Positions 1,927 to 30,024 of a DNA stretch of 36,380 bases are shown here, in pieces (position 1 is the first letter of the stretch; every line of letters starts with the position of its first letter). Origin of the DNA: Chrysochromulina tobinii (Eukaryota). Location: contig JWZX01002588.1 of NCBI GenBank assembly GCA_001275005.1, positions 1 through 36,380 on the forward strand, written 5' to 3'. Position numbers and translations under genes: made by a program. The notes beneath the pieces were generated by a model. It saw only the letters and a list, made by a program, of their open reading frames with translations. It did not search any database and was not told the DNA's origin.

Positions 1927-3499
1927 ATGCTGCACGTCATCCTCCTCGCCTCCGCCGCACTCAGTCAGTCAGTCAGTCAGTTTCGTCGCGGTCCCCCCGC
2001 GCTCGCCGCACTCACGGTGAAGTACGACTCTTCACGTGCGGTAGCCATAGTCACCGAGCTCGCCCAGCGCAGCATTGGGGCTTTGCCTGAAGCCGAAGGC
2101 ACTGCACGCCTCAAGAGCTCCGTGCTCGAGCTGCTCGCTCCGTACGGCGACCCGGCACTGGGAGTACCTTCTGCTACCTTTGACGAGATCGATGCAAAGT
2201 GCCGTGCGCTCGAGGCCCGCAACCCCACAGGAGCCTCCACCGCGGTGGCCGCCCTCGATGGTGCGTGGCGCGTTCGATTCAGCGACGCGCCTCCGCCGTC
2301 TAACGGAGCCCTGGGCCCGCTCCGAGGCCGTGCGTTCCAAATCGTCGACGTGGCCAGCCGCACGTATCGCAATGAGCTGAGCCTCTTCGGCGGCGCTGTG
2401 CAGCTCTCACTGGCGGCCACCTTTGAGCAGCCGTCCGCCTCCAAGGCCGCGCTTCGCGTCGCCTTCCGCACGCTCACGGCGACGCTCGGCGGTGTGGCGT
2501 TGCCGTCGATCCAGTTCCCCACAGGCACGGAGCGTACGTGGCTGCTCACCTACACGGACGCCGACACGCGCGTCGTGCGCGCAGGCGTGGACGGAGGGCG
2601 CTCGACGGCGCGTGAGCTCGGTCTGATCAAGCAGGGAGAGGGCGAGTCGCCTGACTCGTACGCCGTTACCCTGATTGCGCCCTGATTACCGCCATTACCT
2701 CGTACGCCATTACCCGTGATTGCGCTCTGATTACCGCCATTACCTCGTACGCCATTACCTTAATTGCGCTCTGAGTTAACTGATTGCGCTCTGGGTGCGC
2801 CCTGAGTGCGCTCTGAGTACGCTCTGATTCGACCTCTCATCGGCCTCGGAGTGCAGGTACCTGTTCTACCTGACGCGGGCCCCCCCGGAGGAGGCAGCGC
2901 CCGCCTCGTTCTGGCGCGTCGTGTCGAGCACTATGGCCGCCGCAGGGCAGCGGCGCGCGCTCAAGACGGCGCTCATGCAGGCGTGTGAGGGGCAGCGCCT
3001 CGGTGCAGCCACGGACGAGGCCGGGCGTGCTCGCATCATCAATCTCATTCGGGAGCTCGAGCAGCTCAACCCGACCGCACGGCCAGCCCAGTCGACCAAG
3101 CTACTCGGCACCTGGCGCGTGGTTTGGACGACAGAATCCGAGCTGCTCGCGTTGACGAATTCGGGCCTCCTCGGGCTCCCTTGCCAGGGCGCCAGCCAGA
3201 CGATCGGGCGGACGGCGGCGGCGGACGAACGCGGCGCCCAACGCGGCGCCTTCGACTATTCCCTCTCGAACGAGATCAGCTTCGAGGGCGGCTTCCTGCG
3301 TGTTGGCTCCTCGTGCGAGCCGCAGGCACAGGGTGGGCGCGTCAACTTCCGGTTCGAGTCGTGTGCGGCCAAGTGGCGCTCCGTCCAGCTGCCTCTCCCT
3401 CCGGTCGGCTCCGGCTGGTTTGAGGTGCTCTACTTGGATGAGGACCTGCGGCTGTGCACCGACGTGCGCGGCGACTGGCAGGTGTGCATCAAGGGTTGA
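1927..3499 (+). CDS. Plastid lipid-associated (PAP/fibrillin) protein with two tandem domains; exons 1927-2657, 2857-3499
   Basis: Two fibrillin-type segments (LEARNPT...LDGAWRVRFS...WLLTYTDADTRVVR; LEQLNPT...LLGTWRVVWTTE...GWFEVLYLDEDLRLCTDVRGD). A GT-AG intron joins them in frame (..PDS|YLFYLTR..). N-terminus MLHVILLASAALS resembles a signal peptide plus transit peptide. Confidence 0.85.
2658..2856 (+). other. Spliceosomal intron (GT-AG, 199 nt) filled with CTGATTGCGC/ATTACC repeats
   Basis: GTACGC...GTGCAG; removal restores the reading frame; the downstream exon also starts GTAC. Confidence 0.85.
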
Positions 3500-3728
3500 A
3501 GGGGCTCGTTCGCACTGTGGCCGAACGCTCTTCTTCTCAGTCAGTGACGGGCACGGATTGGAAGCCCGCACATGCCCACTTAGCATGCACTCGATCTTTC
3601 CGAAATTCGAAACGTCTTTTGTGTGGGTTCTTGCACATCGCACGGCAGTTCCTGCCTGGATTAAATCCTGCGCGGATTCGACACTGCCGCGCTCTGCAGA
3701 GTGCCGCGACACCAGTTCCACACAAATC

Positions 3729-5171
3729 ATGAAGCTTCGCACCATCCTGCTCCTCCCTCTGCGCCTGGGTCGCCTACGGAAATCGTCGCGGCGTCGATAC
3801 ATTGTGCCTCTCGGCGACGCACCTCCGCAGTACAACGTTGCGCCTCTCACATCGGCGCAGGCAGCAGCTCATGCAGAGGCGGCACACATGTCGAGGCTCG
3901 CAATCGGCATCGCGGCAACGCGTGCAAAGCGCCTCGCGATGAGCGCAGATGCTGCCGAGCCTTGCCGCTACACGGACGATGATGCGTTTTTCGATGAGCT
4001 TGACCGCGATCAGCGCTTGAGGGTCGTTGGGCGCCACCTTGATCACGTTTCGAAACCATTACTGCTGCTCCGCGCCACGTGGCTCAAAGGGCACCACACA
4101 GATCGTCAGTTTCGGCTGCCCGCGACGCGCGAAGAGTTACCGGCGGAGGCCACGATCACCGTCGACGAGCTCCGGCAGATCCATAAGGAGTCGAGCGCGA
4201 AGGTCGCGCTACCGGTGATCGTACTCTCCCATTTTAGGCGAACCGCAGAGCACTCCGCTGATCCTCACGGTATCACAGCTCGCCTTCTCGTCGACGCGCT
4301 CGTGAAGCGGTGGCACGGCTTCACGAGGCGCGGCGTGCAGGAGCTGGGCGTGCTCATCGACTGGTGTGGCTGGGAGGAGGGTATGGACAAGGGTATGGAG
4401 GCGTCGCCCAGCGCCGATGCGTCACTTATGCGACAGGGGCTTTGGTTTGCTCACGCAGGGACGACAGTCTGGATGGCGACGACCAAGGGCGTCCCTGCGG
4501 AGCCTGCTGCAGGACTGAGCACACCGAGCGGTGAAGGCCATTCGTATTGGGCACTCGGCCATTGTGTGGCCGAGTTCGCACTGGCAAACCTCCTCAAGCC
4601 CGCCAGCAACTCAAGCACCGCCGACTGGCCACAACTCGTCGATCTTGGCAAAGAGGACGGGCCGGACGTTGCCTTTGACCGTCCGGCGCCCCTCACGCCC
4701 CTCGCGTTCCACTCTGGGCAACGGCATGGCGAAGATCTCGTCTACACCGCCCGTGCGCCGCGCGACAGCTTCGTGGCCCCCCTGTTCGAGCGTACGTGCG
4801 TCGAGCTGCTCAGCACCGTCGAGGAGCTCAACTTTAGCGGAGCGCGATGGGGTGACAAGGAGGCCGTGCAGCTGGCGCATGTGCTGCCGCTCTGCGTGCG
4901 CCTTCGGGTGCTCCGGCTCGAGAATAATGACCTGGGCGACGTCGGCGTGAGTGCGCTCGCGGTGGCGATGGCCTACCTGCCAGCCTTCGAGACCGTGAAG
5001 CTGCTCGGCAACCCACGCATTTCGCAGCGCGGCATGGCGGCCCTAGCGCGTGCGGGGGGCTCCAAGCCGCCGGAGCCGCCGCCAGACCGCCGCCCGAGCT
5101 TTGCACGAATGGCTGCGAAGCATGCGAACCTGCCGATGCTCTCTGCGGTGCGGGCGGGGCGTTCACCATGA
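3729..5171 (+). CDS. Degenerate HET-like domain plus C-terminal RI-type leucine-rich repeats (start uncertain)
   Basis: LRRs VEELNFSGARWGDKEAVQLAHVL, LRVLRLENNDLGDVGVSALAVAM, FETVKLLGN. Upstream VIVLSH...ADPHG...VLIDWC...HCVAE resembles HET-like motifs. Confidence 0.7.
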   Translation: MKLRTILLLPLRLGRLRKSSRRRYIVPLGDAPPQYNVAPLTSAQAAAHAEAAHMSRLAIGIAATRAKRLAMSADAAEPCRYTDDDAFFDELDRDQRLRVVGRHLDHVSKPLLLLRATWLKGHHTDRQFRLPATREELPAEATITVDELRQIHKESSAKVALPVIVLSHFRRTAEHSADPHGITARLLVDALVKRWHGFTRRGVQELGVLIDWCGWEEGMDKGMEASPSADASLMRQGLWFAHAGTTVWMATTKGVPAEPAAGLSTPSGEGHSYWALGHCVAEFALANLLKPASNSSTADWPQLVDLGKEDGPDVAFDRPAPLTPLAFHSGQRHGEDLVYTARAPRDSFVAPLFERTCVELLSTVEELNFSGARWGDKEAVQLAHVLPLCVRLRVLRLENNDLGDVGVSALAVAMAYLPAFETVKLLGNPRISQRGMAALARAGGSKPPEPPPDRRPSFARMAAKHANLPMLSAVRAGRSP

Positions 5172-5833
5172 CGTATGAGGATTCATGAGGAGGGCATGTC
5201 CGCACATGTTAGTCAGTTGACAAAGTCACTCTGAAAAGACGATCTCTTTCCTGAGCTACAATGCGTTCTAAGCTCAGTTCTAAGCTTCTAACTTATATGT
5301 ACCGGCGGAAACCCTCAAACGGATACGACGCGGAAGGTGTATATAGCGTGTACACGAGGGTCGGCGTGAAAGCACATGTGCTCGACACATGTGCATGGTA
5401 GTCCAGTCGAGTAGGGGCAGGGACTGAAGGTGCTGCTGCCCTGGGTTGCGGGTGGTGGGGCGCCCGTCGTACGGCTACGGGCCGGCGGCTTCGTCAGCTC
5501 CGACGAACGATCATTGACGAAACCGGACGAAACCGCGGACATGGCGAGGACCGCCGCAGCCTAACGGCAACGGCCGGCCTCCCACCACCTCTCTCAGGAG
5601 GTTGTAACTTGTATCATATAATGACGTCTAATACCGAACTTACGATACTAACTATCGTCTATCCCCGGGCGCCAGGGCCGGTATTTCAACTTCACCGCAC
5701 CCAACCGCGCCAACCTCCAACCGATCAATAACCTCACCTAGCAAGGACCACGGGAAGGCATCCTCCTGGTTCTTTCAGGTAAACATATTTGATATTAACA
5801 ACCCTTTGTCAACATACAACGTAGATATTGCAA

Positions 5834-8828
5834 TTAATTGCTTGAATCTGAATCTGAATCTGAATCTGCATCTGCATCTTCATCTTCATCTTCATCTTCA
5901 TCTTCATCTTCATCTGATGTCGAATGACAGCTATACATGGTGCCGACCCGAACTGCGTCACTTGCCCTGCCCATCGACTTCAGCAGCCGGACCACACCCT
6001 GTGCTGAGCTGCGCGTCTCCTGATGGGCATCGCCGTAGTGCGCGGTGCAGCCGTCAAGCTCCTCCATGAAGCATACCAAAGCCCCCTCCAGATCGCCTTG
6101 CGCCTGCAGCAGCGACCCAAGGCTGTAGATCGACCCTAGCGTGAGCGGGTGTGTGTCGCCCAGCGTCGCGCGCCTCACTGCCAGCGCCTCGCGGAACAGC
6201 GGCGCTGCGCCCTCCAGATCGCCTTGGTCCTGCAGCACCGACCCGAGGTTGTTGATCAACTGCACCATGGACAGGTGTGCGTCGCCCAGCGTCGCGCGAC
6301 TTTCTGCCAGCGCCTCGCGGTAAAGCAGCGCCGCACCTTCCAGATCGCCCTTGTCGTGCAACACCAAACCTAGTTGGTTGATCGACGTCAGCGTGTCCGG
6401 GTGCGCGTCGCCAAGCGTCGCGCGCCTCACTGCCAGCGCCTCGCGGCGCAGCAACGCAGCGCCCTCCAGATCGCCCTGCGCCTGCAGCAGCGACCCGAGG
6501 TTGTAGATCGACGTCAGCGTGTCCGGGTGCGCGTCGCCCAGCGTCGCGCGACTCGCTGCCAGCGCCTCGCGGAACAGCGGCGCCGGGCCCTGCAGATCAC
6601 CCTGCGCATACAACAGCGACCCGAGGTTTCTGATAAACGCCAGCGTGACCGGGTGCGCGTCGCCCAGCGTCGCGCGACTCGCTGCCAGCGCCTCACGGAA
6701 CAAAGGCGCCGCACCCTCCAGATCACCCTGCGCATACAACAGCGACCCGAGGTTGCTGATAAACGCCAGAGTGTCCGGGTGCGCGTCGCCCAGCGTCGCG
6801 CGACTCGCTGCCAGCGCCTCGCGGAACAAAGGCGCCGCGCCCTGCAGATCGCCTTGGTCATGCAGCAGCGACCCAAGGCTATTGATCGACGTCAGCGTGT
6901 CCGGATGCGCGTTGCCCAGCGTCGCGCGTCTCGCCGCCAGCGCCTCGCGGAACAACGGCGCCGCGCCCTGCAGATCGCCTTGGTCATGCAGCAGCCTCCC
7001 GAGGTTGTTGATCGACGTCAGCGTGTCCGGGTGCGCGTTGCCCAGCGTCGCGCGTCTCGCCGCCAGCGCCTCGCGGAACAACGGCGCCGCGCCCTCCAGA
7101 TCGCCTTGGTCATGCAGCAGCCTCCCGAGGTTGTTGAGCAGTTTCGACGTCCCGCGTTCCTCCTCGGGAAGCCGCGCGAGCGCCGCCCGTCCCCGGCTGG
7201 CCAGCCAGCCGCGCAGCGCCTCGGCGAGCAACGCATCGAGGCCGCGGTGCCCACCGGTGAGGCGCCGCTCTATCGCGTCGTGGATCATTGCCTCGTCATC
7301 CGGCGTGAAGCACACGGCCCGCCTCGAGTCGACGCGCGACACGGCCCTGGCGATCGCGTCGAACTCTGTTACCAACGCCGCTTCAAAGTCGACCGCCTCG
7401 GTGGGGGGTAGCTGCACACTCAGCCTCCGCCTTCCGGCCTCGCCGCCCGCAGCCACAGTGCAGAGCGCCTCCCACAAGATCCACGCGCGCCGAAGCGGCA
7501 CGGCATCGCGCCAAGGCGAAAAAACGAGGCACGTGTGCCCAATTGCGGCTGTCGTGAGCTGGAAGACGACATCCCAGTTGCAGGGCCGCTCGGCGCTGCC
7601 CACCTCGCCCAGCCAGTGTTGACTCTGCGAGAAGACGTCGAGCCAGACGTAGACTTCTTCCGGATTAGGCTGGCTTGCCGCAAAATCCTCGACGGACGAA
7701 ACGAGCTCGGCGAACTTGTACGCGCGCGCGTGCGAGACGAACGCGGTGGGCGCGGCCACGAATGACCGGCCTGACGCTGCAAGGTAACGCGCACGCAGAC
7801 ACGCGCATCAGTCATCCATCGAATGCCCCCCCCCTCCAGTGTGCACGATCCTCATGATGTGGCAGCTGGGCGCAGACCCGCGCGCGCGTCGGCTCCGCAT
7901 GTGCTTTCAGCACGCTATCAGTACGCATTACTCTGTTCGAGCGCGGAGCCACACCTTGGTCGACGGCGCCCACGCGCTGTAGACAGGCGGCGAGCGAGGC
8001 GCCTGCCCGCTCGGTGAGCGGCTTGCAAACTCGCTCGCACGCCTCCTCGGTCGTCGCGTTGCCGAGCTGCGGCGCGTGCGCGGCGGCGAATGCACGCAGG
8101 CACGCTACTGAGACGCCGAGGAATGGCCAGTTTGGTAGCGCGGCCACCGACGAGGCAGCCACCTCGAGCTCCGTCGGCCGCAGCGGCGCATGTCCCTCAG
8201 CTGCTAGTGCAAGGTCCTCGACGCGCACGCGCCAGCGCGTGCCGCCGTCGCCGCAGCGTTCGAGGAGGGTGATGCCCCGTCCGCAGTGCTGTAGCGTGTC
8301 CCACAGAGCGGCCGGATCGCCCACGGCGAGGGCCCGCCTCGCATCGCGCGCGTCAGCAGCCTCTGGCTCGAGCGTTGCGACACCGAGCCAGTTGAAGGAA
8401 CGAGTGGCTACCAGGTGCGGCGCCAGGCAGACCGCCGATGCCCAGATGTCACGGCCCGCGGCCCACGAGAAGACAACACTCGTGGCGGGGAAGGTGCCAA
8501 GCTCAACGAGCTTCCCGTCAACTCTCGTCCGCACCGCCCAAGATCCGTCCTCCTGCTCCTCTTTCAACACGCCCTCAGCACCCGGCACACTCGTCAGAGT
8601 CACCGGATCGCCAGGCTGCAGCGGCCTAGAGTGTTCGGGAGAGACAATCACCCTCACATCTGCCTGGCCCTCGCCCAAGTGCACGTCGAAGCCCTCTTTG
8701 GTGGGCTGAACCACGACGGATTGCGATAGCATCAGGCCAGGCAGATGCATGGACATGTTTGAGGCGGCGGAGTACGTGCGGCCCCACGAATAAGGCGGCG
8801 CAATTGGGAGGGTCACAGCATCGGGCAT
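5834..8828 (-). CDS. HET-like domain plus nine 42-aa TPR (kinesin-light-chain type) repeats; exons 8828-7955, 7776-5834; 5' end uncertain
   Basis: FVSHA..YKF, WLDVFSQSQH and PLRRAWILWE motifs, then repeats of DTLTSINNLGxLLxxQGDLEGAAPLFREALAxxRATLGDAHP. A phase-1 GT-AG intron joins two ORFs in frame (..VDQ|ASGRSFVAAPTAFVSH..). Confidence 0.85.
5843..5914. repeat. Graded hexamer microsatellite (TGAATC)4(TGCATC)2(TTCATC)6 encoding an acidic DE/DA/DS tail
   Basis: Read directly from the sequence. Confidence 0.95.
6020..7153 (-). repeat. 126-bp coding tandem repeat, 9 copies (TPR array)
   Basis: 42-aa periodicity with very similar nucleotide units. Confidence 0.95.
7777..7954 (-). other. Conventional GT-AG intron (178 nt), no flanking duplication
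   Basis: CAAG|GTGTGG...ACTGAT...TTGCAG|CG; restores frame. Confidence 0.8.
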
Positions 8829-8894
8829 CACCTCCTTGGGAAGCCTGACACACCGCGCGCGCGGGCCTCAACTTTCCCCTGTCCCCACAGTGGT

Positions 8895-8963
8895 TGTCGC
8901 GTCTGTCGTGTTAACGTTCACACGGGACACACCGGCTGTCGCGTCTGTCGTGTTAACGTTCAC
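8895..8963. repeat. 27-bp perfect direct repeat (42-bp period) in a divergent intergenic region
   Basis: TGTCGCGTCTGTCGTGTTAACGTTCAC at 8895-8921 and 8937-8963. Confidence 0.9.
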
Positions 8964-9308
8964 GGGGACACACGGGCACACGGATCCCAACCCACCAACG
9001 CACCCGCACCGCACGACCGCGCGACGACCGAATCCGCGGCCGCGGCTCAACAAACGTTCGAAACAAACGTACAAACCCAGCCGCAGCCCCGGAGCCGACC
9101 GCGGCACCGCGCCCCGCGGCCGAGTTAGAAGAGGCCGCCCCCTGCGAACCCGACCCTGCCGCCTTCCGCTCTCAGAGCGCCCCCCCGCGCCTGCTCAAAG
9201 GCGGTCGGCGAAATGAAGATTCAGAATGAATGTACCGGGTACTGTACCGGTAACGCATCAGTCTATACCGGTAACGCATGAAGTCCAGCATGGTTCAGCG
9301 GCCCCCGC

Positions 9309-10256
9309 ATGGTTTGTGCTCTGCCAGACACTGACTTGCTCCACCCGGAGTCCTGTCCCTGCAAGGAGCGTGTGGGTACGCTGGCCAAGCATGGGCTGCG
9401 TCGGCTCTGCCAGCCTTCGGTGCTATGCACGTTGTCGGTAAACGCGAGCATTGCGAAGGCGACCTTGCGGAGCCCACCGGCGGCGTTTGTGACTGTTCTG
9501 CATGCGGATGATCGCCATGTACGACCCAGGGGGCTCAGTGGCGCGCCCACGACTCAGTGGCGTGTTCAGGCAAGGCGGGTGGTCGAATTGGCCGCCAATC
9601 TACGGGCGGTCAATGCTTCACTGCCTTTGCACTGTTTGCTCACCGGCAGAAACTTGAGCGCTGTCAACATGACAGCTATGCGGATGCAGCACAATATGCA
9701 GCTGCACACGAGCTGGAAAGAGCCGACCGTGCCCACGTGGGCAAGCAAAATGCATCAAGCAACCTTCGCCAAGCTCTCCGTCATGAACGCAAGCTTGCAG
9801 CTCGGTCGGCGGCTCATCTACCTAGACACGGACATGCTCCTGCTGCGCAACATAGACCACCTGGCCAAGTCTCTCCCACCGGATGCACTAGCCTTCACAT
9901 TCCGAGCCGACCACGAGCTTGTGAACTCGGGCACCATGAGCTTTCACGTGAGCTCACAATCCCGCCTCGATGCGGCCTGGAGACTCATCGCCCGGGCGAT
10001 TGCGCGTCGCCCTTGGCAAGCATGCTCGGGTGACGGCGGCGACCAGCAAGTCTGGATCTACTTCCTAGCCCGCACGACGGAGCCGCTGATCGAGCTCCCA
10101 GCGTCATACAACCTTTACCCACCGCAGCTGGAGCAGCTTAATGACTCGCGGTGGTGTGAGAGGGCTCACGCCATCCACAAATCGAACAAGCTTGCGCGGG
10201 GTTCTTGCTTGGACTTTGTTCAGCGCTGGGAACGCAAGGCGCGGCGCGTCATATAG
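9309..10256 (+). CDS. Glycosyltransferase family 8 (glycogenin-like); start uncertain
   Basis: FAKL...RLIYLDTDMLLLRNIDHL (DxD), VNSG, GGDQQ, LPASYN and HK motifs typical of GT8. Confidence 0.8.
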   Translation: MVCALPDTDLLHPESCPCKERVGTLAKHGLRRLCQPSVLCTLSVNASIAKATLRSPPAAFVTVLHADDRHVRPRGLSGAPTTQWRVQARRVVELAANLRAVNASLPLHCLLTGRNLSAVNMTAMRMQHNMQLHTSWKEPTVPTWASKMHQATFAKLSVMNASLQLGRRLIYLDTDMLLLRNIDHLAKSLPPDALAFTFRADHELVNSGTMSFHVSSQSRLDAAWRLIARAIARRPWQACSGDGGDQQVWIYFLARTTEPLIELPASYNLYPPQLEQLNDSRWCERAHAIHKSNKLARGSCLDFVQRWERKARRVI

Positions 10257-10774
10257 CGTCATACGATAGGCGCGGCAGAGCAAGTGCAGTAAGTATGTAT
10301 AAGAAATGATAGCCGTTGTAGGAAGTTAATTAGAAGTTAACTTGAACGTGGTATACATGCACAAGTCCACTCCGGTCTCCGCTTGTCTCCGCACCATGCT
10401 GTGCCGTGCGCCAGTCGGACAATACACATTCCGCCACCAGACCACGCACGCGTCACAGACAGCTGCGAGACACCTTCATACCCCAGAGATGGCGCAAACT
10501 TGGATCGGCGCTAGATCGGCGCGGGTCTCACCTTCAAGTCCCGACCCCACGCCCGTGCCGCCGCCGCCGCCGCCGCCGCTTACCTTGCCTCTCCACTGCG
10601 CGACCATTGAACGCGGGCCCAAGACGCTGTGCGGCACGCTGTCGAGCCTCATACCCTAGCTGCTCCTCGCTGGCCTGTCTCGCGTTCGCACAAAGTGCCC
10701 CGCGTTCGCAGGAGCGCACAGCGTCCCTCGGACTGACACGCCTGCCCTGCTTGTCATAGGCGATTGCCGCGAGC

Positions 10775-12188
10775 TCACTTGGCGTCGGAGTCATAGCCGA
10801 GGTACGGTCCCATCCACTTTTCGGTCACCTCGAGCGACTGTCCCTTGCGGGCCGCGTAGTCGACCATCTGGTCCTTGCAGACCTTGCCCACCTGGAAGTA
10901 GGAGGCGCACTCGTTGGCGAAGACAAGCGCCGAGACCGAGGCCGCTGGGAGCATGGCGAGCGAGTCCGTCAGTTGGATGTCGCAGTTCTTATCCGCCTGG
11001 ATGAGCTCCCACATGAACTTCTTCTCCGTGTGGTCGGGCTGCGTCGGGTAGCCTGGGGCAGGCCGAATGCCCTGGTACTTCATCTTGAGCATGTCGTCCG
11101 CGGACAGCTTCTCGTCGGGAGCATAGCCCCAGAGCTCCTTGCGAATCTTGTGGTGCAGCAGCTCGGCGAAAGCCTCCGCGAGCCGATCGGCGACCGCCTC
11201 CATCATGATGCCCTTGTAGTCGTCGTTCTGCTCGCGCAGCTTGGCGCACACCTCCTCGCACCCGAAGCCGGCGGAGACGGCGAAGGCGCCAATGTAGTCG
11301 GTCTTGCCGCTCGTCTTCGGGGCGACGAAGTCGGACATGGCGTAGTAGGTCGCCTCTTCGCGCTCCTCCTGCTGGCGGAGCGTGTGGAAGGTGCCCAACT
11401 TGACGCCCGATCCGTCGGGCTTGTACACCTCGATGTCGTCGCCCACGCTATTCGCCGGCCAGATGCCCACGACGCCGTTCGCTTGGAGCGTCTTGTTCGC
11501 GATGATCTCGTCGATGAGCTTGAGCGCGTCGTTGTGCAGCTTCTTCGCCTCCTCGCCGACGGTCTCGTCGTTGAAGATCTTGGGGTAGCCGCGGTTGGGG
11601 TACTTGCCGCGCAGCTGCCACACCTGGAAGAAGGGGTTCCAGTCGATGTACGGCAGCATCTCCTTGAGGTCGTAGTCCTTGAAGACCTTGACGCCAAGGA
11701 GCTTAGGGGTCGGGATCGCGGTCGCCTTCCAATCGACGACGAGCATCTTGGCGCGCGCCTTTTCGAGCGAGAGGAACTTGCGCGAGGCGAGGGAACGGTA
11801 GTGGTCCTCGCGCATCTCCTCGTACTGCTCGCGCACGTCCTCCATGAACTCGGCGCGCTTCTTGTCGTTCAGGAGCGACTCGCACACAGAGACGGCGCGC
11901 GACGCGTCCAGCACGTGCATCGCGAAGCCCGATGGGTAGTTCGGTGACACCTTGACGGCCGTGTGCATCTTGGATGTGGTGGCGCCGCCGATGAGCAGGG
12001 GGATGCGAAGGCCCGTCCGCTCCATCTCCTTGGCCACAGTGACCATCTCGTCGAGCGAGGGAGTGATCAGGCCGGAGCAGCCGAGGATGTCCGCCTTATG
12101 GTCCACGCAGGCCTGCAGGATGTCGCGCGAGTTGCACATGACTCCGATGTCGACGATGGTGTAGTTGTTGCAGCCCAGCACGACGCCG

Positions 12189-12220
<32 letters not shown>

Positions 12221-15065
12221 CTTGACGGTGGCCATCACGACAACGCCCTTGCCCTTCTCCTCGATCTCGGCCAGGCCCGCCGCCTTGCGCTCGGCCGCGG
12301 CCTTGGCCTTCTCAGCCTCCATGAACGGCAGCAGGTACGCCACAGCCTTCTTCATGACGCGCGCCGACTTGATCACCTGCGGCAGGAACATCTTGCCCGC
12401 GCCGAAGAGATCGCCGACCACGTTCATGCCCTCCATGAGCGGACCCTCGATGACCTCCAGGTTGGTCGGGAACAGGTGACGCGCCTCCTCGGTGTCCTCC
12501 TCGATGAACTCGGCAATGCCCTTGACGAGGGCGTGCGTGAGGCGCGCGTTGACTGGCTTGCTGCGCCACTCAAGCGCGTCTTTCTTGGGGCCGGAGGACC
12601 CCTTGTTGTCCTTGTTCTCCTTTTGCTCCTCGGCGAACTTGAGCAGCCTCTCGACGTGCTCGCCGTCGGCCGATTGGTTGAGGACGACCTCCTCAATGTA
12701 GTCGCGCATCGGCTGCGGAATGTCCTCGTAGATGGGCATCGCGCCCGCGTTGACGATACCCATCGTCATCCCGTTCTTGATTGCGTGGTACAGGAAGACG
12801 GCGTGGATCGCCTCGCGCAGATCGAGGAGCCCACGGAAGCCGAACGAGAGGTTGGAGACGCCACCCGAGACCTTGGCACCGGGCAGGTTCTCAGTGATCC
12901 ACTTGGTGGCAAGGATGAAGTCCTTGCCGTAGTTGTTGTGCTCAGCGAGGCCGGTAGCGATCGTGAGGATGTTCGGGTCGAAGATGATGTCCCAGGGCGG
13001 GAAGTCGACCTTGGGCGACACGAGGATGTCGTACGCGCGCTTGCACATGGAGATCTTCTCCTCGTAACCCGCCGCCTGGCCCTTCTCATCAAAGGCCATG
13101 ACTACCACCGCCGCGCCGTAGCGTTTGACAATCTTGGCCTTGCGGATGAACTCCTCCTCGCCCTCCTTGAGCGAGATCGAGTTGACGATGCACTTGCCCT
13201 GGCAGCACTTGAGGCCCGCCTCCACAATGTGGAACTTGGACGAGTCGATGCAGAGGGGCAGCTTTGAGATGTCGGGCTCAGGGATGAGCATGTTGAGGAA
13301 CTTTTTCATCGCGAACTCGCCGTCGAGCAGCCCCTCGTCCATGTTGACGTCGATGACCTGCGCGCCCGACTCGGCCTGCTGGCGCGCGATCTCGAGCGCC
13401 TTGTCGTACTCGCCGTTCAGGATCAGCTTCTTGTACTTGGCTGAGCCCGCAATGTTGCACCGCTCGCCAATGTTCATGAACCCGAGGGACTTGTTCACAG
13501 TCAGAGGTTCGAGGCCCGAGATGCGCATCTCGGTGAAGGGCGGCGGGCGCTCGCGCGGACGGAACGGCGTGCCGTTCGCGATCGCGTCCATCACCATCTT
13601 GTTCACCGCCGCGATGTGCTCGGGCGTCGTGCCGCAGCACCCGCCAAGCGCGTTGACGAGACCCGTGTCAAGGAAGAGCTTGACCGACTTGGCGAACGAC
13701 TCGGGCGTCTCGTCGTAGCCGCCCATGGCGTTCGGCAGGCCGGCGTTCGGGTACGAGTGCACGAAGCACTCGGCCACGTTCGAGAGCGCCTGCATGAATG
13801 GGAGCATCTGGTCGGCTCCGAGCGCGCAGTTCAGGCCGATGCAGATGGGCTTCGCGTGCTGGACAGAGACGTAGAAAGCTTCCGTCGTCTGTCCGGAGAG
13901 GGTGCGGCCAGACATATCGACGATGGTGCCCGAGATCATCACCTGATGAGGGAGGCAATCAGACAGATGAGGGAGGCAATCAGACAGATGAGGGAGGCAA
14001 TCAGACAGATGAGGGAGGCAATCAGCCAGATGAGGGAGGCAATCAGCCAGATGACGCCCGAGATCATCACCGGCAGGCGCGGGCAGCCAGACTCCTCGTA
14101 GTACTCGTCGATCGCGTACAGCGCTGCCTTGGCGTTCAGCGTGTCGAAGATGGTCTCGACGAGCAGGATGTGCGCGCCGCCGTCGATCAGGCCCGCGACC
14201 TGCGTCTTATACGCGGCGACCACCTCGTCCCAGGTGCAGTTGCGGAAGCCAGGGTCCTCGACGGAGGGCGAGATGGAGAGCGTGCGGTTCGTCGGGCCGA
14301 TCGCGCCCGCCACCAGCCGCGGGCGGTGGGGCTCCTTGGCGGTGATCTCTTTGGCCGCGTCCACGGCGAGCTCGCATGCCTTCTTGTTCATGTCGTACAC
14401 GACGTGCTCCATCGCGTAGTCCGCCTGCGCGATGACGGTGCCCGAGAACGTGTTGGTCTCGCAAATGTCCGCGCCGGCCTCGTAGTACCGACGGTGGATC
14501 TCGCGGATCGTGTCCGGTTGCGTGAAGACGAGAAGATCGTTGTTGCCCTTGAGCTCCTGCGTCGGCGGGCAATCCTTGAACATCTCCATGCGGAAGTCCT
14601 CCTCGGTGAACTTGTACTGCTGGATCGTGGTGCCCATCGCGCCATCGATGATCATGATGCGCTCCTTCATGCACTTCGTGAGGTAGTCGTGGATCTTTTT
14701 CGCGTCCTGCTTGCCCGCCAGGCCCCACGGCAGGTCGGGCCAGTTGCCCTCGACCTTCTGGGCCACCTTCTTCGGCGCAGCCTTGGGGGCTCCACCGGCT
14801 ACGCCACGGGCCTCGGCCGTGGCCTTGCAGAGCGCCAGCTTCTTCGTCAGTGACTCGATCACCTGGGTTAGCTCCTCCTCGGACAAGGCGTCGTAGTCCA
14901 CGTTGGCTTGCTGGCGCTCGATTTCCTGAGGCGACAGAAGGCGGTGAGCTCGCCGCCGGTGAGCAGCGCAGCAAGGGAGAGGAGCAGCGTTGATAGAGAG
15001 ATCGCACGTTCGATGCACGGAGTCCACACCTTTTGGACGGCCGCGGCGATAGCGGTCTTGTCCAT
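10775..15065 (-). CDS. metH: Cobalamin-dependent methionine synthase; exons 15065-15030, 14925-14071, 13942-10775 (about 1352 aa)
   Basis: [21 protein letters not shown] (Hcy/Zn domain), IGERCN (pterin domain), [15 protein letters not shown] (cobalamin binding), GIRPAPGYP (AdoMet reactivation). Two GT-AG introns restore the frame. Confidence 0.97.
13943..14070 (-). other. Intron (GT-AG, 128 nt) = 21-nt copy of downstream exon + five 21-nt repeats + AG
   Basis: CCG|GTGATGATCTCGGGCGTCATC (TG[G/T]CTGATTGCCTCCCTCATC)x5 AG|GTGATGATCTCGGGCACCATC; removal restores the conserved [11 protein letters not shown]. Confidence 0.95.
14926..15029 (-). other. Conventional GT-AG intron (104 nt) of metH
   Basis: AAG|GTGTGG...GCTCAC...CCTCAG|GAA; gives an in-frame ATG exon. 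Confidence 0.8.
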
Positions 15066-16433: not shown

Positions 16434-16507
16434 AGGCACCACCGGACTACCGGTAAAAAGACACCGGGGGGAGCCGGGACACACAGTCCGGTAGTCCGGT
16501 GGTGCCT
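16434..16507. repeat. Perfect 20-bp inverted repeat with 34-nt spacer
   Basis: AGGCACCACCGGACTACCGG (16434-16453) / CCGGTAGTCCGGTGGTGCCT (16488-16507). Confidence 0.95.
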
Positions 16508-17643: not shown

Positions 17644-17722
17644 CGGCCACGCCTCCGTCCATTGCGATTGCGGCCCCCGTGCTTGGGGGTCCGGAGAGCG
17701 CGCGCGTTGTGTGTTTCACAGC
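17644..17722 (+). repeat. Dispersed 79-bp repeat, copy 1 (upstream of CSPP1-like gene)
   Basis: 71/79 identical to 30468-30546, ungapped. Confidence 0.93.
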
Positions 17723-17850: not shown

Positions 17851-20160
17851 ATGCCGCCACGAATTGTTACGATCTCGGCAGATGCGGTTGCCTCGCACGT
17901 CGCACCACCACTGCAGCAAGGCTACTACCAACCACCGCCAACTCATGTCGTGCAACAGCCGTATTACTCGGCTCCACCGCCACAGCCCGCGCTGCAGTAC
18001 TACCAGCCGCCGCCGCAGCAGCAATTATACCAGCCGCCGCCACATATGGTCGCATATCAGCCGCTGCCACCGCACGCGGCCGCGTACCAGCCGCCGCCAC
18101 CAGTGCAAACAGGACTGTGGCTCGACAACCACAGCGTATCACATGTGTCGCCCGAGTCACACATTCGCGACGCGGCGTGGAGAACGGACCAGCGCGACCT
18201 CGACCAGAAGCGAGCGCAGCAGGAGCGCACGCGCATGGAATTGCAGAGGCAGATCGACGAGAGGAAGGCTCAGAAGGATGCGAAAGCCGCCGAGCTCAAG
18301 CGTATCGAGGCGCGTGAAGCGGCCGAAGAGCGCAGCTACAACCCCTTTGGGCGCGGCGGTGGCGGCGCGCCGCTACGCGACGCCGAAGGCAACCTGCAGA
18401 CGGATCTGCGCCACGTCAAGCCCGATCGGTCGCCGGCGGCTCGGAGTACCGCAGAAGCGCTGTACGGTGCGCCTGACCGCGAGGGCGCCGTCGCCGCCGC
18501 CGCCGCCGCCGCCGCCGCAGCCGCCGCAGCGGCTGCTGCTGCGGCGCCGCCACCGCCGCGACCATTGCAGCCGCCGCCGCCCCCACAACCGCATCAGCAG
18601 CAGTGGCAGGCCCCCGAGCAGCAGTGGCAAGCGCCCGCGCCAGCCCATACTGCCGCGGCGCAGCAGCACGTTACATTTGCGCCGCCGCCGCGGCCACGGC
18701 CACCGCCGCCGCAGCAGCCGCCGGCGCAGCAGCAGCAGGCCGTGCCGATGGCGCCGCCGCCGATGCCGCCGGCGCCGGCGACGCCCGCCGATGCGTTCGC
18801 GAGGCAGGAGGCCAATGCCGCTCGCCTCGGCTCGCAAATGTCGCGTGGCGCGTTCTCGATCGGTGGCGGCATGGGCGGCGACGACGACGGCGACGGCGGC
18901 GGTGGCGAGTCCATTTTAGGGCTCCTGGGTGGCACTGCGAGCGCGGCGGCGGCTCCTCGACGGCGCGATCGAAGCACGTCCCTCTTGCCGTCCGGGATCG
19001 CGATGCCCGTCGTGAGCCTGGGCGGTGACGCGCCGCCACCAGTCGTTCGTGGAGGCGTTGTGGGTCATCCTAATTTGGGTCGTCGCATTGAGGACCCTAA
19101 TTTGGGTGGAGCTGAGGAGCGCCCGGGCCGACCCAAATTAGGTCGACGCGTCGGCGCAGGCGCGCCCGCGGGCGGCGACGGGCGCGCGGACAAGCGTGCG
19201 ATGGGCCCCTGGGCCCGTTCCGTGGCGGGCGCCGTGGCGGGCGCCGTGGCGGGCTCGAAGACCCTCGCCCGGAGCACATCGGCGCCGCAGCGCGACGGCG
19301 GCGGTGTGGACGGGCTGAGCGGCGCCCTCAAGACGGCTGCAGGCGTCGGACGGCGCGCCGCCGGTTCGGCCCACCCGTCGGCGCGCGCGCCGCCACCCCC
19401 GACCGGCGCGAGTGCCAGCTCCGCGACGAGCGCCGCCTCGGGCGCGAGGCGCGGCGGCCGGCCTTCTACACACGTCCCCGCTGATGAGCTGCACCGGCAG
19501 CTCGAATCTCGCGATGACGAGATCCGCAATCTCCGTCGGCAGCTCGAGGCTGAGAGGCTCCTTCTCGCACAACGTACGGAGCTCCTTCTGGAGCCTGGGA
19601 ATCGCTCACCCGAGGTCTTACGACAACTAGTCGGCTCTGTCTTCCCTCCGTCCGCCGGCGCTGGCGCTCACGCCGGCGCTCATGCCGGCGCTCTGACAGG
19701 AGGCGCCTCCACGAGCCCGCATCGCTCCCCGCATCGCACGCTGGCACCCAAAACGCTCGACACAGCGCTCCGCGTCGGCGCCACGGCCGTTCCCACGCCC
19801 ATCCCATACGCGCCCAATACAGCGCCCTCATATGCGCCCACACCCAGCGGGGGAGATGGAGTGTGGGACGCGGAAGTCGGCGCTGTATTGGGCGTTCTGC
19901 CTGTGTCGGTGGTGCAGCCGAGCGCCGTTGGAGGGTTCGGCACCGGCGGCGACGCCTACCTTGCCGCATCCAAGGCGTGCGTGCGTGCAGACGGGATGCG
20001 CTGCGGCCGGCTCGAGGCTGCCAAGATGCTCGCGCTCGTACGGCGTTACAAAATCATCGTGCCCCCAGACATGGCCGAAGCGGCGAAGAAAAAGGGGATG
20101 TGCAGCTACACTGTCTTCATCGATCGACTCAGAGAACTCGGCGCCGCGTCGGCAGCGTGA
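17851..20160 (+). CDS. CSPP1/CCDC66-like centrosomal or ciliary protein, Pro/Gln/Ala-rich
   Basis: Coiled coil [13 protein letters not shown] followed by [24 protein letters not shown], resembling the CSPP1 signature; possible degenerate EF-hand at the C-terminus; hidden introns not excluded. Confidence 0.7.
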
Positions 20161-20282
20161 GCGGTCCTACGGGTCGGACTCGGATTCGGGCCTGCCTCCG
20201 GCCTCGGTGATCGGATCAGTAGCGCGTCAACTTTAAGCTCCAACCGACGGCTAACCGACGGCGGGCGACGCGGCCCATTCGA

Positions 20283-23003: not shown

Positions 23004-23146
23004 ATGTTCCCTCATATCTTTGCTAGCACTTTTCTGAAGATGATTCGAACTCCGGTCTCGTCAATGTGGCGATCGATGCGGATCGCGAGCTCGATTTGTG
23101 TGCACGGAATGTGGATGTGGCAGACCTCGGATTCAGCGTTGCCGCG

Positions 23147-24528: not shown

Positions 24529-26142
24529 CTACGCGACTACAGGGTACACGTACAGCGCCTCGTACCGTCTAAGTCCCTTGCGGGTGTGGGAGCTTCCCCA
24601 AGCATGCCCATGCAGTCGGCGCTTACGTCGCAACTCGTCTGCTGGCGGGACGGCGCTTGAGACGGCGCTCGACCTGCGAGGAGGCGGCGGGGGAAGCTCC
24701 CCGTAAAGCGACCGAGACGGAGCTAGAGTTGCGCCGAGCACCTTGAGCCGACGCAGCACAACGTCGGCCACCGCGCCGCGGCTAAAATGCTCAACCATGG
24801 TCGCACGTGCTCGGGCGCCACGTTCCTTCGCGGCCGCGCCGTCGCCACTCGTCGCCTCGTCGTAGGCACGTCGCATGGCCTGGCGCAGCATCGCAACTGT
24901 CGTCTCGGCGAAGCCGCCAGCGAGCTCACGCGCGACGGGCAGCTGGTGCGAGTTGTGCGCCGTCAAAAAGGCCGTTGGGCCCGAAAAATTGGTCGCGATG
25001 ACTGGTAGCCCCATCGCCATCGCCTCTGCAATCGGCAGCCCCCATCCTTCGCCGCGCGTCGGCAGGACGAAGCAGTTCGAACGCGCGTACAGCCGCCGCA
25101 AGGCGACGCGCGAGACGTCCTCCTGTAGGAGCTCTACCGGCGCCAGCTTGTCGCGCGGAGCCCTCGCCACCTGGAGCGCATGCCGGCTCACCCACTCATT
25201 GAGGTCGCGAGGGCCAGGCTCCCACGAGGGGAGGTACGACTTGATCACCTGATGAGAGAGTCCATCAGAGTCCATCAGAGGCCATCAGAGTCCATCAGAG
25301 GCCATCAGAGGCTAATCAGAGGCCATCTTAGGAAATCAGAGGCAATCAGAGGCAATCAGAGGAAATCAGAGTCCATCAGAGCCTCCCCATATGAGGGGAG
25401 GTAGTTGATGGATCACCAGCTTGACTGCGCTGCGCTCTCGAGCACTCGTGAATTCACACCAGTAGGCCTCGAGGAGCAGGTCCCAGCCTTTGCGCCACTC
25501 CCACTTGAATGAGGACAGGAAGACAAAGGGGCTCGGCGATGGCGCCGGTGTGTCGCCGACCTTGGCGCTCGGCCGTTTCCACCAGCCGAGCGGCCCGTCA
25601 CTTGGCTCTTCTACCACCGAGGGGATGTAGTTGGGGTGGAAGAAGTCCACGTCGACGGGCTCTGGCACCACGTGCAAAAGGGAGCGTGCGATGCCCGCGG
25701 CAACAAATGTGTCGACGTGCCATGCGGTCGGCACCCAGATCTCGTCGGCGTGGCGCAGGCAGGCGGCCTGCTCCGCCTTCAGGCTGGATTCAGTCATAGT
25801 GCGCGCAACGACGCGCCAAGGACGGGCGCTGCTCGACTGCCAGCGCCGCATGCTGCACGGCTCGCCATGCTCAATGACGAGCGCCCCGTGCGTCTGCTGA
25901 GCAGAGCGCGCATTCTCATCGGCCCACGTGGCACGGTACGTAGCGGCGTCACGGGCCTCAAGTTGTCCATCAAGCCAGACATCGTCGCATTTGCCCGTCA
26001 AAAGCCGGACGGCCACACCCTTGTCGTGTAGGCCGGGGACGAAGCCTAGCGCCACCTCGGTGAAAAAGCCGGAGAAGCCGCAGCCGACAGGTACGCGCCA
26101 CTCGACCTCGAATTGCACGGGGCTCGATGTTGACAAGGACAT
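24529..26142 (-). CDS. GT-B fold glycosyltransferase (GT4/group 1-like); exons 26142-25417, 25248-24529; 5' end uncertain
   Basis: DEIWVPT, VPEPVDVDFF, FKWEWRKGWDLLL, FVLPTRGEGWGLPIAEAMAMGLPVIATN (EX7E motif). Confidence 0.88.
25249..25416 (-). other. Intron (GT-AG, 168 nt): degenerate copy of downstream exon + about twelve 10-nt CTCTGAT(GG/TG/TT) repeats
   Basis: CTG|GTGATC...CTCTCATCAG|GTGATCAAG; restores AVKL|VIKSYLP. Confidence 0.92.
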
Positions 26143-26538
26143 GGCCTGGCTTTCATGCTCCAACCTGCTCGTCCTTTCCTGTGAAAATACACGATCCTCG
26201 ACAACACTCGTCCTCGACGCGCCGACCTTCGCTCAAAGCCTCCCTTCCACTGGCTTCACATCTCTCAGCCGCTAACATATGTTCATATCGTGGGAATCCT
26301 GGTGCGCCCCCCCACAGGGTGGGCGCGGATCTCCTCTCTGCGCGCTGCCTCTCTGCCTCGACCCCTCGCGCCTCGCGCCTCGCGATGTGCTGCGCGCCTT
26401 GCGAATCTGCGTGTGAACTCTACGGCGCCTTTTCACGGCGCGATCTGATCGCGGCGCGCCCTTCCCCCTGTACTTGACCCTCCCCCTCCGTGTCTCGCAC
26501 GAGGACAAGGGGGGAGGCTCAGAACCTCGTGACGAACC

Positions 26539-27723: not shown

Positions 27724-27885
27724 TGCTGCTGCGAGCGCGGCCACCGCGGGGCCTCGAGGCCCTCGAGAGCTCTCGAACGCCACTGGGGAAGAAGGTGGTT
27801 GGTGAAATGGCGCTAAGGAATCTGCAAGGGAATATTTCGCGCCATCACGGCAGCCCTTTTCGACTCAGCTTCCCTCCACACACCA

Positions 27886-30024
27886 ATGCTAGCGAGGCGC
27901 TTCTCGTGCCCGCCGGTCTTCGAGGCCGCGTACGAGCCGCGAGAGGTGCCGGAGGCCGCGCGCGACATGCACGGCTCGGTCATCTTCCGGCCGACTCGTG
28001 ATGACTGGCTTCCGCTCCTCGGCGAGATGATCCAATTGACCAATGAAGCCGTACGCAGGCGGGCTGCGAGCGCACGCGACGCGTCGAAGCCTCTTCAGCT
28101 CGAGTTCATGGCGGACCGCATCGATGTCGACGACCCGCTCTTCGGGTACATCGCCGTCACCAAGGACAAGGGGTGGCTGCAGGGCTTCATCACGGCCACT
28201 ACCTTCACCACTTGGCACCGTGGCTTTCGCTGGGACTCCCTGAGTCCGTGCGTCGACCTGCAGCACGAGCTGTCCCACGACGACGACAACGCGAGCTCGC
28301 CGTCGGGCTTCACGGCCGTGGCCAACAGCGGCGGCAGCGGCGGCAGCGCGAGCGCGCGCCGGCGTGCTGCCACCGCATCGCTCGCCAGGGAGCGCGTTGT
28401 CGACTCGGACGGCAGCTTGAGCGCCGAGCTGATGCAGGAGGTGTTCGCGGGGGACCCCGACGGCGAGGGTGTCGTCTGGCCGCGCGTGGCCGAGATCTCG
28501 CTCCTCGGCGCCCTCGGCTGCGGGCGGTGGCTCGTGCAGGCGCGTGCCACTAATTGCCACTGATTGCCACTGATTGCCACTGATTGCCACTGATTGCCAC
28601 TGATTGCCACTGATTGCCACTGATTGCCACTGATTGCCGCCGCGCTCGAGGCTCGTGCAGCTGCTCATTGACGGCCTCGAGGTGGCCGAGAGCCCTTACC
28701 ACTTCGTCGTGCTGATGGCGACGCACAACGCGATCCCCTTCTACGAGAAGATGGGCTTCGTGCGCGTGGGCGCCGTGCTGGCGACGCGCGTTGAGCCCTT
28801 GGCCGACGAGGACGGCGACGAGGCGGAGGGAGCTGGCATCGGCACTAAGAAGCGCAAGCGCGCGGCGGCGGCCGCCGCTGCCGCGAAGCCCGCGGAGGAA
28901 GGCAAGGGGCGGGTGCACTCGAGGCTGGTTGAGCACACGTGCAAGGAGGGCGAGACGGCCGCGAGCGTCGCCGCCCAATATGGCGCCGACGGCTTCGACG
29001 TCCTCTTCGTCAACCAGCGCCGCTTCCCACAGCTGCACCAGCACGCCCCCCTTCGAGCTGGCACGCAGCTCCAAGTGCCACGCCCGTTGAGTCGCGAGGA
29101 GGCGATCGAGGAGCTCCGCAAGCAACGGCAGAGCTGGCACACGGTCACGCAGGAGGCGACGCTTCGACGGCTCGCCGACATCACCGGCGTCTCGGCGGAC
29201 GAGCTCTATCGTCTCAATAAGGGGCGGCTCGACGGTTTGCAGTTAGGCGCCACGTTGCGCGTGGGCACGCGGCTGCTGACGGCGGGCGTGGACGGGCAAA
29301 AGGACGAGGAGTACTGCCATTGGTCCTTCCCCGATGACGAATCGCCCGATGAGCCCTCCCCTTGCATGCAAGTGCTCACCACAGCGCGGCCCCCTACATT
29401 CCCCACAGGAGCTTCCCCGATGACGAATCGCCCGATGAGCCCTCGTACATGATGGCTCGGAAGCTCAAGCCAGCTCACGAGCGCAAGGCTGGCGGCGCCC
29501 AAGCGCCCGCCACAACGCTCGAACAAGCGAAGCGCCTGCTCGTCGCCCAGAGGCCGACCGTGGTACCCGTGCCCGGGCGCCAGGCGGTCGTCGAGGCGGC
29601 ACGGCGGCGCACGGCCGCGCGCGTCGCCGTCGCGCATCCCGACCTATTCGACAAGGTCGTGCGTCTGGATGCGCATGGCTCGCACGAGACGCGGTACCAG
29701 TTCTGGTATGTGCTCACCTACCTACCCGACCTGCAGTGGTGCCACCTGGCACCCCTCGAGCGCCGCGGCACCTTCGGCGAGAGGCCGAGCCCGAATGGCC
29801 ACGTGGCCACGGGCCGCGACCGTTGGATGCTCGTGGCGGAAGATCTGGGCGGCGAGATTGACGTTGGGGCGGGGCGCTGCTTTGTCGTGAAGGCGACGCC
29901 GATGATGAAGGCCAAGGACGCCATGGACGCCAACAAGGAGGAGTGGGACATCGTCGAGCTTGATGGCGCCGTGATGGGCGTCGAGGAGCCGGCGAGGGCG
30001 GAGATGGTGATGGACGAGGAGTGA
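27886..30024 (+). CDS. GNAT-type acetyltransferase with two LysM-like domains; exons 27886-28539, 28661-29322, 29409-30024
   Basis: GALGCGRWLVQ...VVLMATHNAIPFYEKMGFVRVG (GNAT motifs A/B); HTCKEGETAASVAAQYG...LFVN and HTVTQEATLRRLADITGVSADELYRLN (LysM-like); KKRKR; two introns join three ORFs in frame. Confidence 0.8.
28540..28660 (+). other. Probable GC-AG intron (121 nt): (TGATTGCCAC)x9 plus 11-nt copy of the upstream exon end
   Basis: GGCTCGTGCAG|GCGCGT...GGCTCGTGCAG|CTG; phase 0; restores frame. Confidence 0.82.
29323..29408 (+). other. Intron (GT-AG, 86 nt): 33-nt perfect copy of downstream exon + 50-nt filler with palindrome CTTGCATGCAAG
   Basis: TG|GTCCTTCCCCGATGACG...CCCCACAG|GAGCTTCCCCGATGACG; restores YCHWSFPDD. 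Confidence 0.85.

What the first reader, a model, noticed from the sequence alone, without database searches (positions are those of the whole stretch)
2658..28660. Shared, strand-specific CTGAT(TGC) minisatellite in four introns looks like a multiplied branch-point cassette
Seen: four introns in unrelated genes (two on +, two on -) have fillers with the same core, always on the transcribed strand: CTGATTGCGC (2658), TGTCTGATTGCCTCCCTCATC (metH), CTCTGATTGC/CTCTGATGG (GT) and CTGATTGCCA (28540). Unit lengths differ (about 10, 21 and 44 nt). Established: CTRAY is the spliceosomal branch-point consensus. Inference: a common template is copied reiteratively, or selection keeps only insertions in the splice-competent orientation.
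Basis: partly seen in the sequence, partly recalled or inferred. Interest (0 to 1): 0.82.

Follow-up and report, generated by a model that had tools for sequence, protein, structure and literature searches.

The report
Repeat-filled introns that seed new introns
In this alga, many genes carry short introns made of one shared 10-base repeat plus a shared splice-site end, flanked by duplicated host sequence, which likely marks an undescribed way of creating new introns by copying a small template into DNA breaks.

Summary
Four CTGAT(T/G)GC arrays lie in introns on the coding strand; RNA contigs splice the metH one, and homologous proteins fix the junctions of two more. A scan of public metagenomes shows a genome-wide family in a haptophyte. 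Arrays are sense to the gene in 27 of 29 Pfam-oriented cases. One splice site comes from that duplication; the other comes from a shared donor or branch-point/acceptor cassette. A second 45-nt cassette family, with one copy in this window, is built the same way. Antisense copies exist but survive as in-frame peptides (4 of 4 are multiples of 3), so strand bias is likely selection, not mechanism. Database proteins imply a metH allele without the intron (DNA not seen). Best reading: recent intron gain by templated insertion at staggered breaks, likely from a short RNA, with later slippage. The introner survey's filters would exclude such introns. Branch-point use and the enzyme are untested. The scan's notes showed no earlier report of this.

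The parts
2658..2856 (+). Intron (199 nt, GT..AG) in a two-domain PAP_fibrillin gene (about 1927-3499). Holds 11-nt CTGATTGCGCT-type units and re-copies of the donor junction (45-nt period); only a 4-nt duplication at its ends.
   Evidence: junction ESPD^SYLFYLTR matches homologues' EAADAYLFVLTR; DNA contigs cover both ends; no RNA contig spans it.
13943..14070 (-). metH intron (128 nt, GT..AG). Starts with a copy of the next exon's first 15 nt, then five copies of the acceptor cassette CTGATTGCCTCCCTCATC(A/T)G; only the last keeps AG.
   Evidence: Spliced in RNA contigs X16 and X18 with 16 letters fitting on both sides; junction matches P0001, P0004, P0005.
13928..13943 (-). Downstream copy of the 16-nt target duplication (other copy 14056-14071)
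   Evidence: (both = 16)
25249..25416 (-). Intron (168 nt, GT..AG) in a GT1 glycosyltransferase gene. Begins with a diverged copy of the next exon's start, then 10-nt CTGATGGCCT/CTGATTGCCT units, ending CTCTCATCAG.
   Evidence: junction SAVKL^VIKSYLPSWEPGPR matches homologues such as QSVRLLIKTYLPSWEPGPR
28540..28660 (+). Predicted intron (121 nt, GC..AG) with nine CTGATTGCCA units. The acceptor comes from an 11-nt duplication of the upstream exon end (28529-28539 and 28650-28660); the donor start resembles that of L010.
   Evidence: Frame restoration; not tested with RNA; no homologue found
29323..29408 (+). Predicted intron (86 nt, GT..AG) of the second family ('type B' cassette GCATGCAAGTGCTCACCAC, pyrimidine tract, CACAG), with a 33-nt duplication (29326-29358 and 29412-29444).
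   Evidence: not tested with RNA
14926..15029 (-). Ordinary metH intron (104 nt) with no array and no long duplication; an internal control
   Evidence: Spliced in RNA contigs of X15, X16, X18 and X17

Best explanation
These introns are members of a genome-wide family of short insertions flanked by duplicated host sequence, likely made when a polymerase copies a short shared template, likely an RNA such as an excised family intron, into a staggered DNA break. Shown: the insert is 10-nt units plus either a shared acceptor cassette or a shared donor start, set between two copies of 8-50 nt of the target. In class 1 the duplication of the downstream exon supplies GT/GC and the cassette supplies the predicted branch point and AG. 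In class 2 the insert supplies the donor and the duplication of the upstream exon supplies AG. Exact excision restores the original mRNA (shown for metH by RNA). Inferred: insertion happens in both orientations. Sense copies carry stop codons and survive in exons only when they splice out; antisense copies have no stops and survive only in frame or outside coding DNA. Inferred: target-primed reverse transcription is the copying step, and new introns may act as templates for more. Shown: unit number varies between alleles afterwards, as slippage would give.
For: Direct repeats scoring >=10 flank 51 of 95 arrays against 23 of 456 control spans; a GT/GC..AG pair is in register in 35 of 51 on the array strand and 9 of 51 on the other. 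Tail-anchored search: duplications scoring >=10 in 41 of 91 cassettes against 47 of 1183 control CAG|G sites. The two copies differ at 23 of 748 positions, so the events are young. Classes among 35: 17 upstream, 12 downstream, 6 both; the script put the window's 28540 intron in the wrong class. Orientation: 27 sense against 2 antisense by Pfam, tallied by hand from 76 arrays; 42 sense, 4 antisense, 32 uncalled by a codon model that was right in 57 of 59 leave-one-out chunks. Four antisense inserts in open frames all have spacing divisible by 3, against 8 of 35 spliced ones (Fisher p 0.006, picked after the fact). Identical or near-identical MetH proteins (0, 1 and 8 differences) run through the junction but start inside exon 2, on contigs up to 27,425, 23,485 and 7,574 nt, implying an allele without the intron. 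Cassettes in one locus are no more alike than between loci (p 0.23 and 0.70), which favours a diffusible template. Variable 8-51-nt duplications are typical of target-primed retrotransposition (recalled).
Against: No template RNA, reverse transcriptase or autonomous element was found; no whole genome was held and Rfam finds nothing in the window. The empty metH allele was not seen as DNA: 0 of 4 DNA runs show the joint, and the protein evidence assumes a gene caller that does not splice. Three of the four antisense inserts are bare array pieces without splice ends, so the match of insert ends to splice sites may be selection alone and is not evidence for an intron RNA template. 44 of 95 arrays have no strong duplication, including two of the four in the window. 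The loci were chosen by the repeat pattern, so they cannot show whether other fillers insert the same way.
Confidence: 0.5

Rival explanations
1. Same insertions, but the donor is DNA: a repair polymerase switches template by microhomology from the broken target to another genomic copy of a family intron and back, re-copying part of the target.
For: Alternating blocks of target copy and array in single introns (window 2658, L009, L044, L074). Short shared letters at joints. Direct repeats flank new Daphnia introns ascribed to staggered breaks (PMC4202315 passages). Two local look-alikes in L056 and L010.
Against: No excess of local donors. It does not explain why a few cassettes dominate the donor pool, including antisense inserts under no splicing selection. 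Daphnia repeats are 4-12 bp, shorter than the 8-51 nt here.
Confidence: 0.25
2. A non-autonomous transposon (MITE, SINE tail, or HUH-type such as a Replitron) with an unseen autonomous partner, that is, an ordinary introner.
For: Introners are common in Chrysochromulina MAGs (PMC9860276 supplement rows). They co-opt one splice site from the duplication. Replitrons give variable-length duplications and one was found in C. tobinii (bioRxiv 2022.12.15.520654 passages).
Against: No fixed length, no fixed duplication length, no two fixed ends; either end can be missing. Only a 5-nt CTGAT/ATCAG inversion in the tail; no fold above shuffles.
Confidence: 0.13
3. Introns arose by plain tandem duplication of exon DNA, or are old, and the repeats grew later by slippage because CTGAT helps splicing; shared cassettes spread by gene conversion.
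For: Tandem duplication is an accepted route to introns (PMC3443670 passages). Arrays do change length by slippage. Strand-biased 10-11-nt intronic repeats were reported in Emiliania huxleyi and read as functional (Read et al. 2013; recalled, not held).
Against: The same 20-45-nt cassettes abut near-identical duplications at dozens of unrelated loci. Antisense copies in coding frames cannot be selected for splicing. Control introns in the window lack both array and duplication.
Confidence: 0.1
4. Assembly artefact: a very common repeat joined into genes by mistake.
For: Logan contigs break inside the arrays, and depth over the metH array sums to several thousand against about 40.
Against: Four DNA runs carry both junctions of the metH and fibrillin inserts, and RNA removes the metH insert at GT..AG. 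The same inserts recur in separate samples.
Confidence: 0.02

Closest known systems
Introners, including Chrysochromulina sp. families (Gozashti et al. 2022, PMC9860276 / bioRxiv 2022.06.06.494994; passages and supplement rows read)
   Same: Many similar introns in unrelated genes; one splice site carried, the other taken from the target duplication; bias to genes.
   Different: Published duplications are 3-9 bp (4 bp in Chrysochromulina); here 8-51 nt and variable. Only one end is shared, either one, and the interior is a tandem array. Their pipeline needs similarity near both ends and removes low-complexity families. The motifs were not in the held supplement, which is cut and may hold no sequences.
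Intron gain at staggered double-strand breaks in Daphnia pulex (Li et al. 2014, PMC4202315; passages read)
   Same: New introns with a direct repeat of the adjacent exon end and internal repeats.
   Different: Daphnia repeats are 4-12 bp; the passages read describe no filler shared between loci. Here a few cassettes recur genome-wide.
Strand-biased 10-11-bp intronic tandem repeats of Emiliania huxleyi (Read et al. 2013; recalled, paper not held)
   Same: Haptophyte, 10-11-nt period, intronic, strand-biased. GC donors are common in E. huxleyi (PMC4028052 passages).
   Different: As recalled, read as a possible splicing signal, with no link to target duplications or intron gain. Whether those repeats have the same anatomy was not tested.
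Intron transposition and tandem genomic duplication models (Yenerall and Zhou 2012, PMC3443670; passages read)
   Same: A copied intron brings splice signals; a duplicated AG|GT supplies splice sites.
   Different: Reverse splicing leaves no target duplication, and tandem duplication brings no foreign filler; these introns show both.
Telomerase-made interstitial repeats at breaks, LINE tail slippage, DRT2 reiterative reverse transcription (first two recalled; DRT2 seen only as a search listing, PMC12039810)
   Same: A short RNA template copied repeatedly, in the first two cases between duplicated target sequence.
   Different: An analogy only; no enzyme or RNA was identified here, and none of these is known to make introns.

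Membership tests
Spliceosomal (U2-type) intron | Removed from mRNA at GT/GC..AG | tested here: met
   metH intron skipped in RNA contigs; junctions of two more match homologues. The 28540 and 29323 introns are predicted only.
Spliceosomal (U2-type) intron | Branch point at the CTGAT/CTCAC motif | not testable with these tools
   Position fits (-17 to -31); no lariat reads.
Introner (Gozashti definition) | At least four similar introns in non-paralogous genes | tested here: met
Introner (Gozashti definition) | Similarity reaching within about 10 nt of both intron ends | tested here: not met
   One end is locus-specific duplication of 8-50 nt in most copies (criterion)
Introner (Gozashti definition) | Not dominated by short repeats | tested here: not met
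   Type A is array-rich; type B is not
MITE / cut-and-paste DNA transposon | Terminal inverted repeats and fixed short duplication | tested here: not met
   Duplications 8-51 nt; no stable fold in four window introns
Non-LTR retroposition (target-primed reverse transcription) | Variable-length target duplication, one fixed and one ragged end | tested here: met
   the fixed end may be due to selection
Non-LTR retroposition (target-primed reverse transcription) | Source RNA and a partner reverse transcriptase | not testable with these tools
   No genome held; contigs behind the loci not held
Recently gained intron | Empty allele in the same or sister population | tested here: inconclusive
   Proteins imply one; 0 of 4 DNA runs show it
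E. huxleyi-type intronic 10-11-nt repeats | Genome-wide intronic enrichment and strand bias | tested here: inconclusive
   Strand bias met in a sample; enrichment in genes only modest, 27 of 32 against 374 of 600; definition recalled

The most novel reading that the evidence does not exclude
Haptophytes run an ongoing intron factory: a reverse transcriptase primes on broken genes and copies short branch-point RNAs, the ends of excised introns, reiterating a 10-nt unit in telomerase fashion. Each surviving insert is a ready-made intron and a new template. This would be direct evidence for RNA-mediated intron multiplication and would explain the strand-biased 10-11-nt intronic repeats of haptophytes generally.
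Probability: 0.25. Interest if true: 0.92.

Novelty: new variant of a known kind. Interest (0 to 1): 0.72.

Why it matters
Where new spliceosomal introns come from is a long-standing question, and copying of introns through RNA has little direct support. Here the inserts are young, numerous (about 9,100 stored metagenome stretches match the pattern, an estimate that includes unrelated matches and repeat assemblies) and in a cultured alga with RNA data. So empty and filled alleles, templates and new events can all be looked for. The anatomy falls in a blind spot of introner surveys, so the class may be undercounted elsewhere. It also predicts a common annotation error, and small in-frame AIRGNQRQSE-type peptides in proteins.

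Tried and rejected
ORF length alone did not orient genes (62 against 52). Local donors: rejected as the main source. A 10-nt periodicity in duplication length: best p about 0.04 over 17 periods on 31 hand-picked lengths, not significant. RNA structure of four introns: none above shuffles. Rfam: no hit in the window. Viral or prokaryotic source: the tail has 0 matches in viral and in prokaryotic genome contigs; 5 viral matches to the array pattern were set aside as unrelated; one viral contig ends in a type B cassette and may be host-derived. L015, L120 and L099 were checked as a possible parent element: an inverted-repeat element with an array inside, no recognised enzyme in the segments scanned. 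Empty alleles in DNA runs X10-X13: none; a depth-3 joint at 13840-14056 with a 23-letter side was ignored. No RNA evidence was obtained for the inserts beyond position 18000, and RNA did not span the fibrillin intron. Homologue search for the 28540 gene found nothing. Locus filtering: one search kept 77 of 134 loci by GC and by eye; five dropped ones (L064, L099, L100, L117, L131) proved haptophyte-like and were restored. Pfam got 241 of 268 segments (overlapping duplicates left out). Literature: ten searches found no description of this family; the library lacks most subscription papers and Read et al. 2013.
Full report
Source. The window is 64% GC. Its MetH is 87% identical to a protein labelled Phaeocystis cordata and 72% to Emiliania huxleyi over the first 500 residues, so it is a haptophyte. 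A Chrysochromulina-like species is a guess from GC (63.4% in C. tobin; PMC4580454 passages). No whole genome was held.

Observation. All four arrays are present. CTGATTGC occurs 18 times against 1.64 expected. Pfam places the four host genes on the strand that carries CTGAT. RNA contigs of two runs skip 13943-14070 exactly, GT..AG, with 16 letters fitting on either side; two more RNA runs stop at that junction; none of four DNA runs skips it. The fibrillin intron (2658-2856) and GT intron (25249-25416) give junction peptides that match homologues. The intron at 28540-28660 is predicted from frame and an 11-nt repeat only. Three other introns checked in the window lack the CTGAT array.

What was missed. 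The metH intron begins with a copy of the next exon's start; the 28540 intron ends with a copy of the previous exon's end; the GT intron begins with a diverged copy; and a fifth intron (29323-29408) has a 33-nt duplication around a different cassette. A strand-neutral pattern scan of metagenome contigs returned 130 stretches from 1 of 64 parts of the collection, with about 9,100 estimated in all. In 77 of 134 loci kept as haptophyte-like, plus the window, 51 of 95 arrays had a flanking direct repeat scoring at least 10, against 23 of 456 control spans. A splice pair lay in register on the array strand in 35 of 51 and on the other strand in 9 of 51. Anchoring on acceptor tails gave 41 of 91 against 47 of 1183. 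The two copies differ at 23 of 748 positions. Lengths run from 8 to 51 nt, median 19, in 31 hand-picked cases.

Anatomy. Two complementary classes appear among the 35 in-register cases: donor from the duplication with a carried acceptor (12), acceptor from the duplication with a carried donor (17), and 6 mixed (the window's 28540 intron belongs to the second class though the script put it in the first). Carried acceptors are stereotyped: after the last unit, CATCAG in 43 of 76, CATTGCATGCAG in 8, CATCTG (the metH internal copies) in 4, other in 21. Carried donors recur too: L009, L023 and L092 share one start, and the window's 28540 intron resembles L010. A second cassette, GCATGCAAGTGCTCACCACGGCGCCC plus a pyrimidine tract and CACAG, is built like class 1. 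GT follows a tail in 60 of 88 cases and GC in 9. Every unit or cassette holds a CTGAT or CTCAC at branch-point distance in the five window introns; the branch-point consensus is recalled and its use is not mapped.

Strand. Pfam hits in flanking segments (241 of 268 submitted) orient 29 of 76 arrays: 27 sense in 17 genes and 2 antisense, after leaving out three bacterial-type loci and two low-complexity hits (tallied by hand). A codon model gives 42 sense, 4 antisense and 32 uncalled of 78 arrays; one antisense call (L054) is probably wrong and two (L015, L120) are one element. So the bias is strong but not absolute. The sense units carry stop codons; the antisense units carry none. Four antisense inserts in open frames (L023, L038, L043, L074) all have duplication spacing divisible by 3, against 8 of 35 spliced ones (p 0.006, chosen after the fact). 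L008 has an antisense array in an apparent intron that uses a GC donor from the repeat itself. This is what selection on two-way insertion predicts. Enrichment inside genes is modest: 27 of 32 arrays have coding signal on both sides against 374 of 600 random spans, with an in-sample model.

Age. P0001, P0121 and P0126 differ from the window's spliced MetH at 0, 1 and 8 residues, cross the junction unbroken, yet start at a valine codon in exon 2. They are recorded on contigs of up to 27,425, 23,485 and 7,574 nt. If those genes were called without splicing, an allele lacks this intron but keeps the first one. I could not see that DNA, and four DNA runs show only the filled allele. Orthologous arrays differ in unit number between samples (L011/L078, L015/L120).

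Mechanism. Shared cassettes between young duplications mean a template was copied in. Donors are not mainly local (p 0.23 and 0.70), though L056 has an intron that starts with the exon sequence following another intron of the same gene. Variable long duplications and one ragged end fit target-primed reverse transcription (recalled). I commit to a short RNA template, most simply excised family introns, at 0.5; DNA template switching 0.25; a transposon with an unseen partner 0.13; duplication plus slippage 0.1; artefact 0.02. The insertion-plus-selection frame common to the first three is about 0.88. Against the RNA reading: no RNA or enzyme was found, and three of four antisense inserts lack splice ends. 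One tail ends at CAG with a 13-nt duplication and no donor (L064), a single case in favour.

Known systems. Introners share the logic of co-opting one splice site, but the survey that found them in Chrysochromulina MAGs required similarity near both ends and removed repeat-rich families (PMC9860276 passages), so it would drop these. Daphnia's new introns have 4-12-bp repeats (PMC4202315 passages). Strand-biased 10-11-nt intronic repeats in E. huxleyi are recalled from Read et al. 2013, which was not held; that lowers the novelty of the bare observation but not of the insertion anatomy. PMC12480563, PMC4028052 and PMC11282704 (passages) do not describe the family. Ten searches found no description. 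The scan's earlier notes held nothing on this sequence.

Verdict. Interest 0.72.

Noticed in passing
L056:1980-2046 and 3151-3251: In an AAA-domain gene, one type B intron begins with the exon sequence that follows another type B intron 1.2 kb downstream and has no duplication of its own; it looks like a whole intron copied within one gene.
   Followed up: partly
window 19060-19254: Inside the 881-codon open frame lie CCTAATT(T)GG motifs in both orientations and antisense fragments resembling the type B cassette; CCCTAATTAG also ends some family introns (L012, L057).
   Followed up: partly
window 35015-35264: Probable intron filled with a different array, (GCTGCGACC)n, with no CTGAT.
   Followed up: no
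window 30022-30144: 34-nt tandem array rich in GAGCTC palindromes starting at the predicted stop codon of the LysM-containing gene.
   Followed up: no
window about 1960-2011, 8890-8990, 16448-16485, 17576-17670: Intergenic dispersed repeats with summed DNA depth of 1,500-12,000 against about 40; many loose ends in other contigs.
   Followed up: no
L015, L120, L099: Element with inverted ends beginning TTGCCTCCCCCCTGTGTTTTG and AAAACAC subterminal repeats, holding a CTGATTGC array near one end.
   Followed up: partly
L135:2874-3060: A contig filed as viral has four TGACGAACCC units between 40-nt duplications (spacing 78, in frame on the other strand) and a type B cassette at its end; a third unit type with the same anatomy.
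   Followed up: partly
L084/L091: GAGATCGCAC 10-nt units precede a type B cassette in one intron, so other 10-nt units use the same framework.
   Followed up: no
window 6084-7137: 126-nt coding repeat, 8.4 copies, in a long minus-strand open frame.
   Followed up: no
window 13975-14085: Low-depth RNA contigs in X17 cover the metH intron: retained intron, DNA carry-over or other loci.
   Followed up: no
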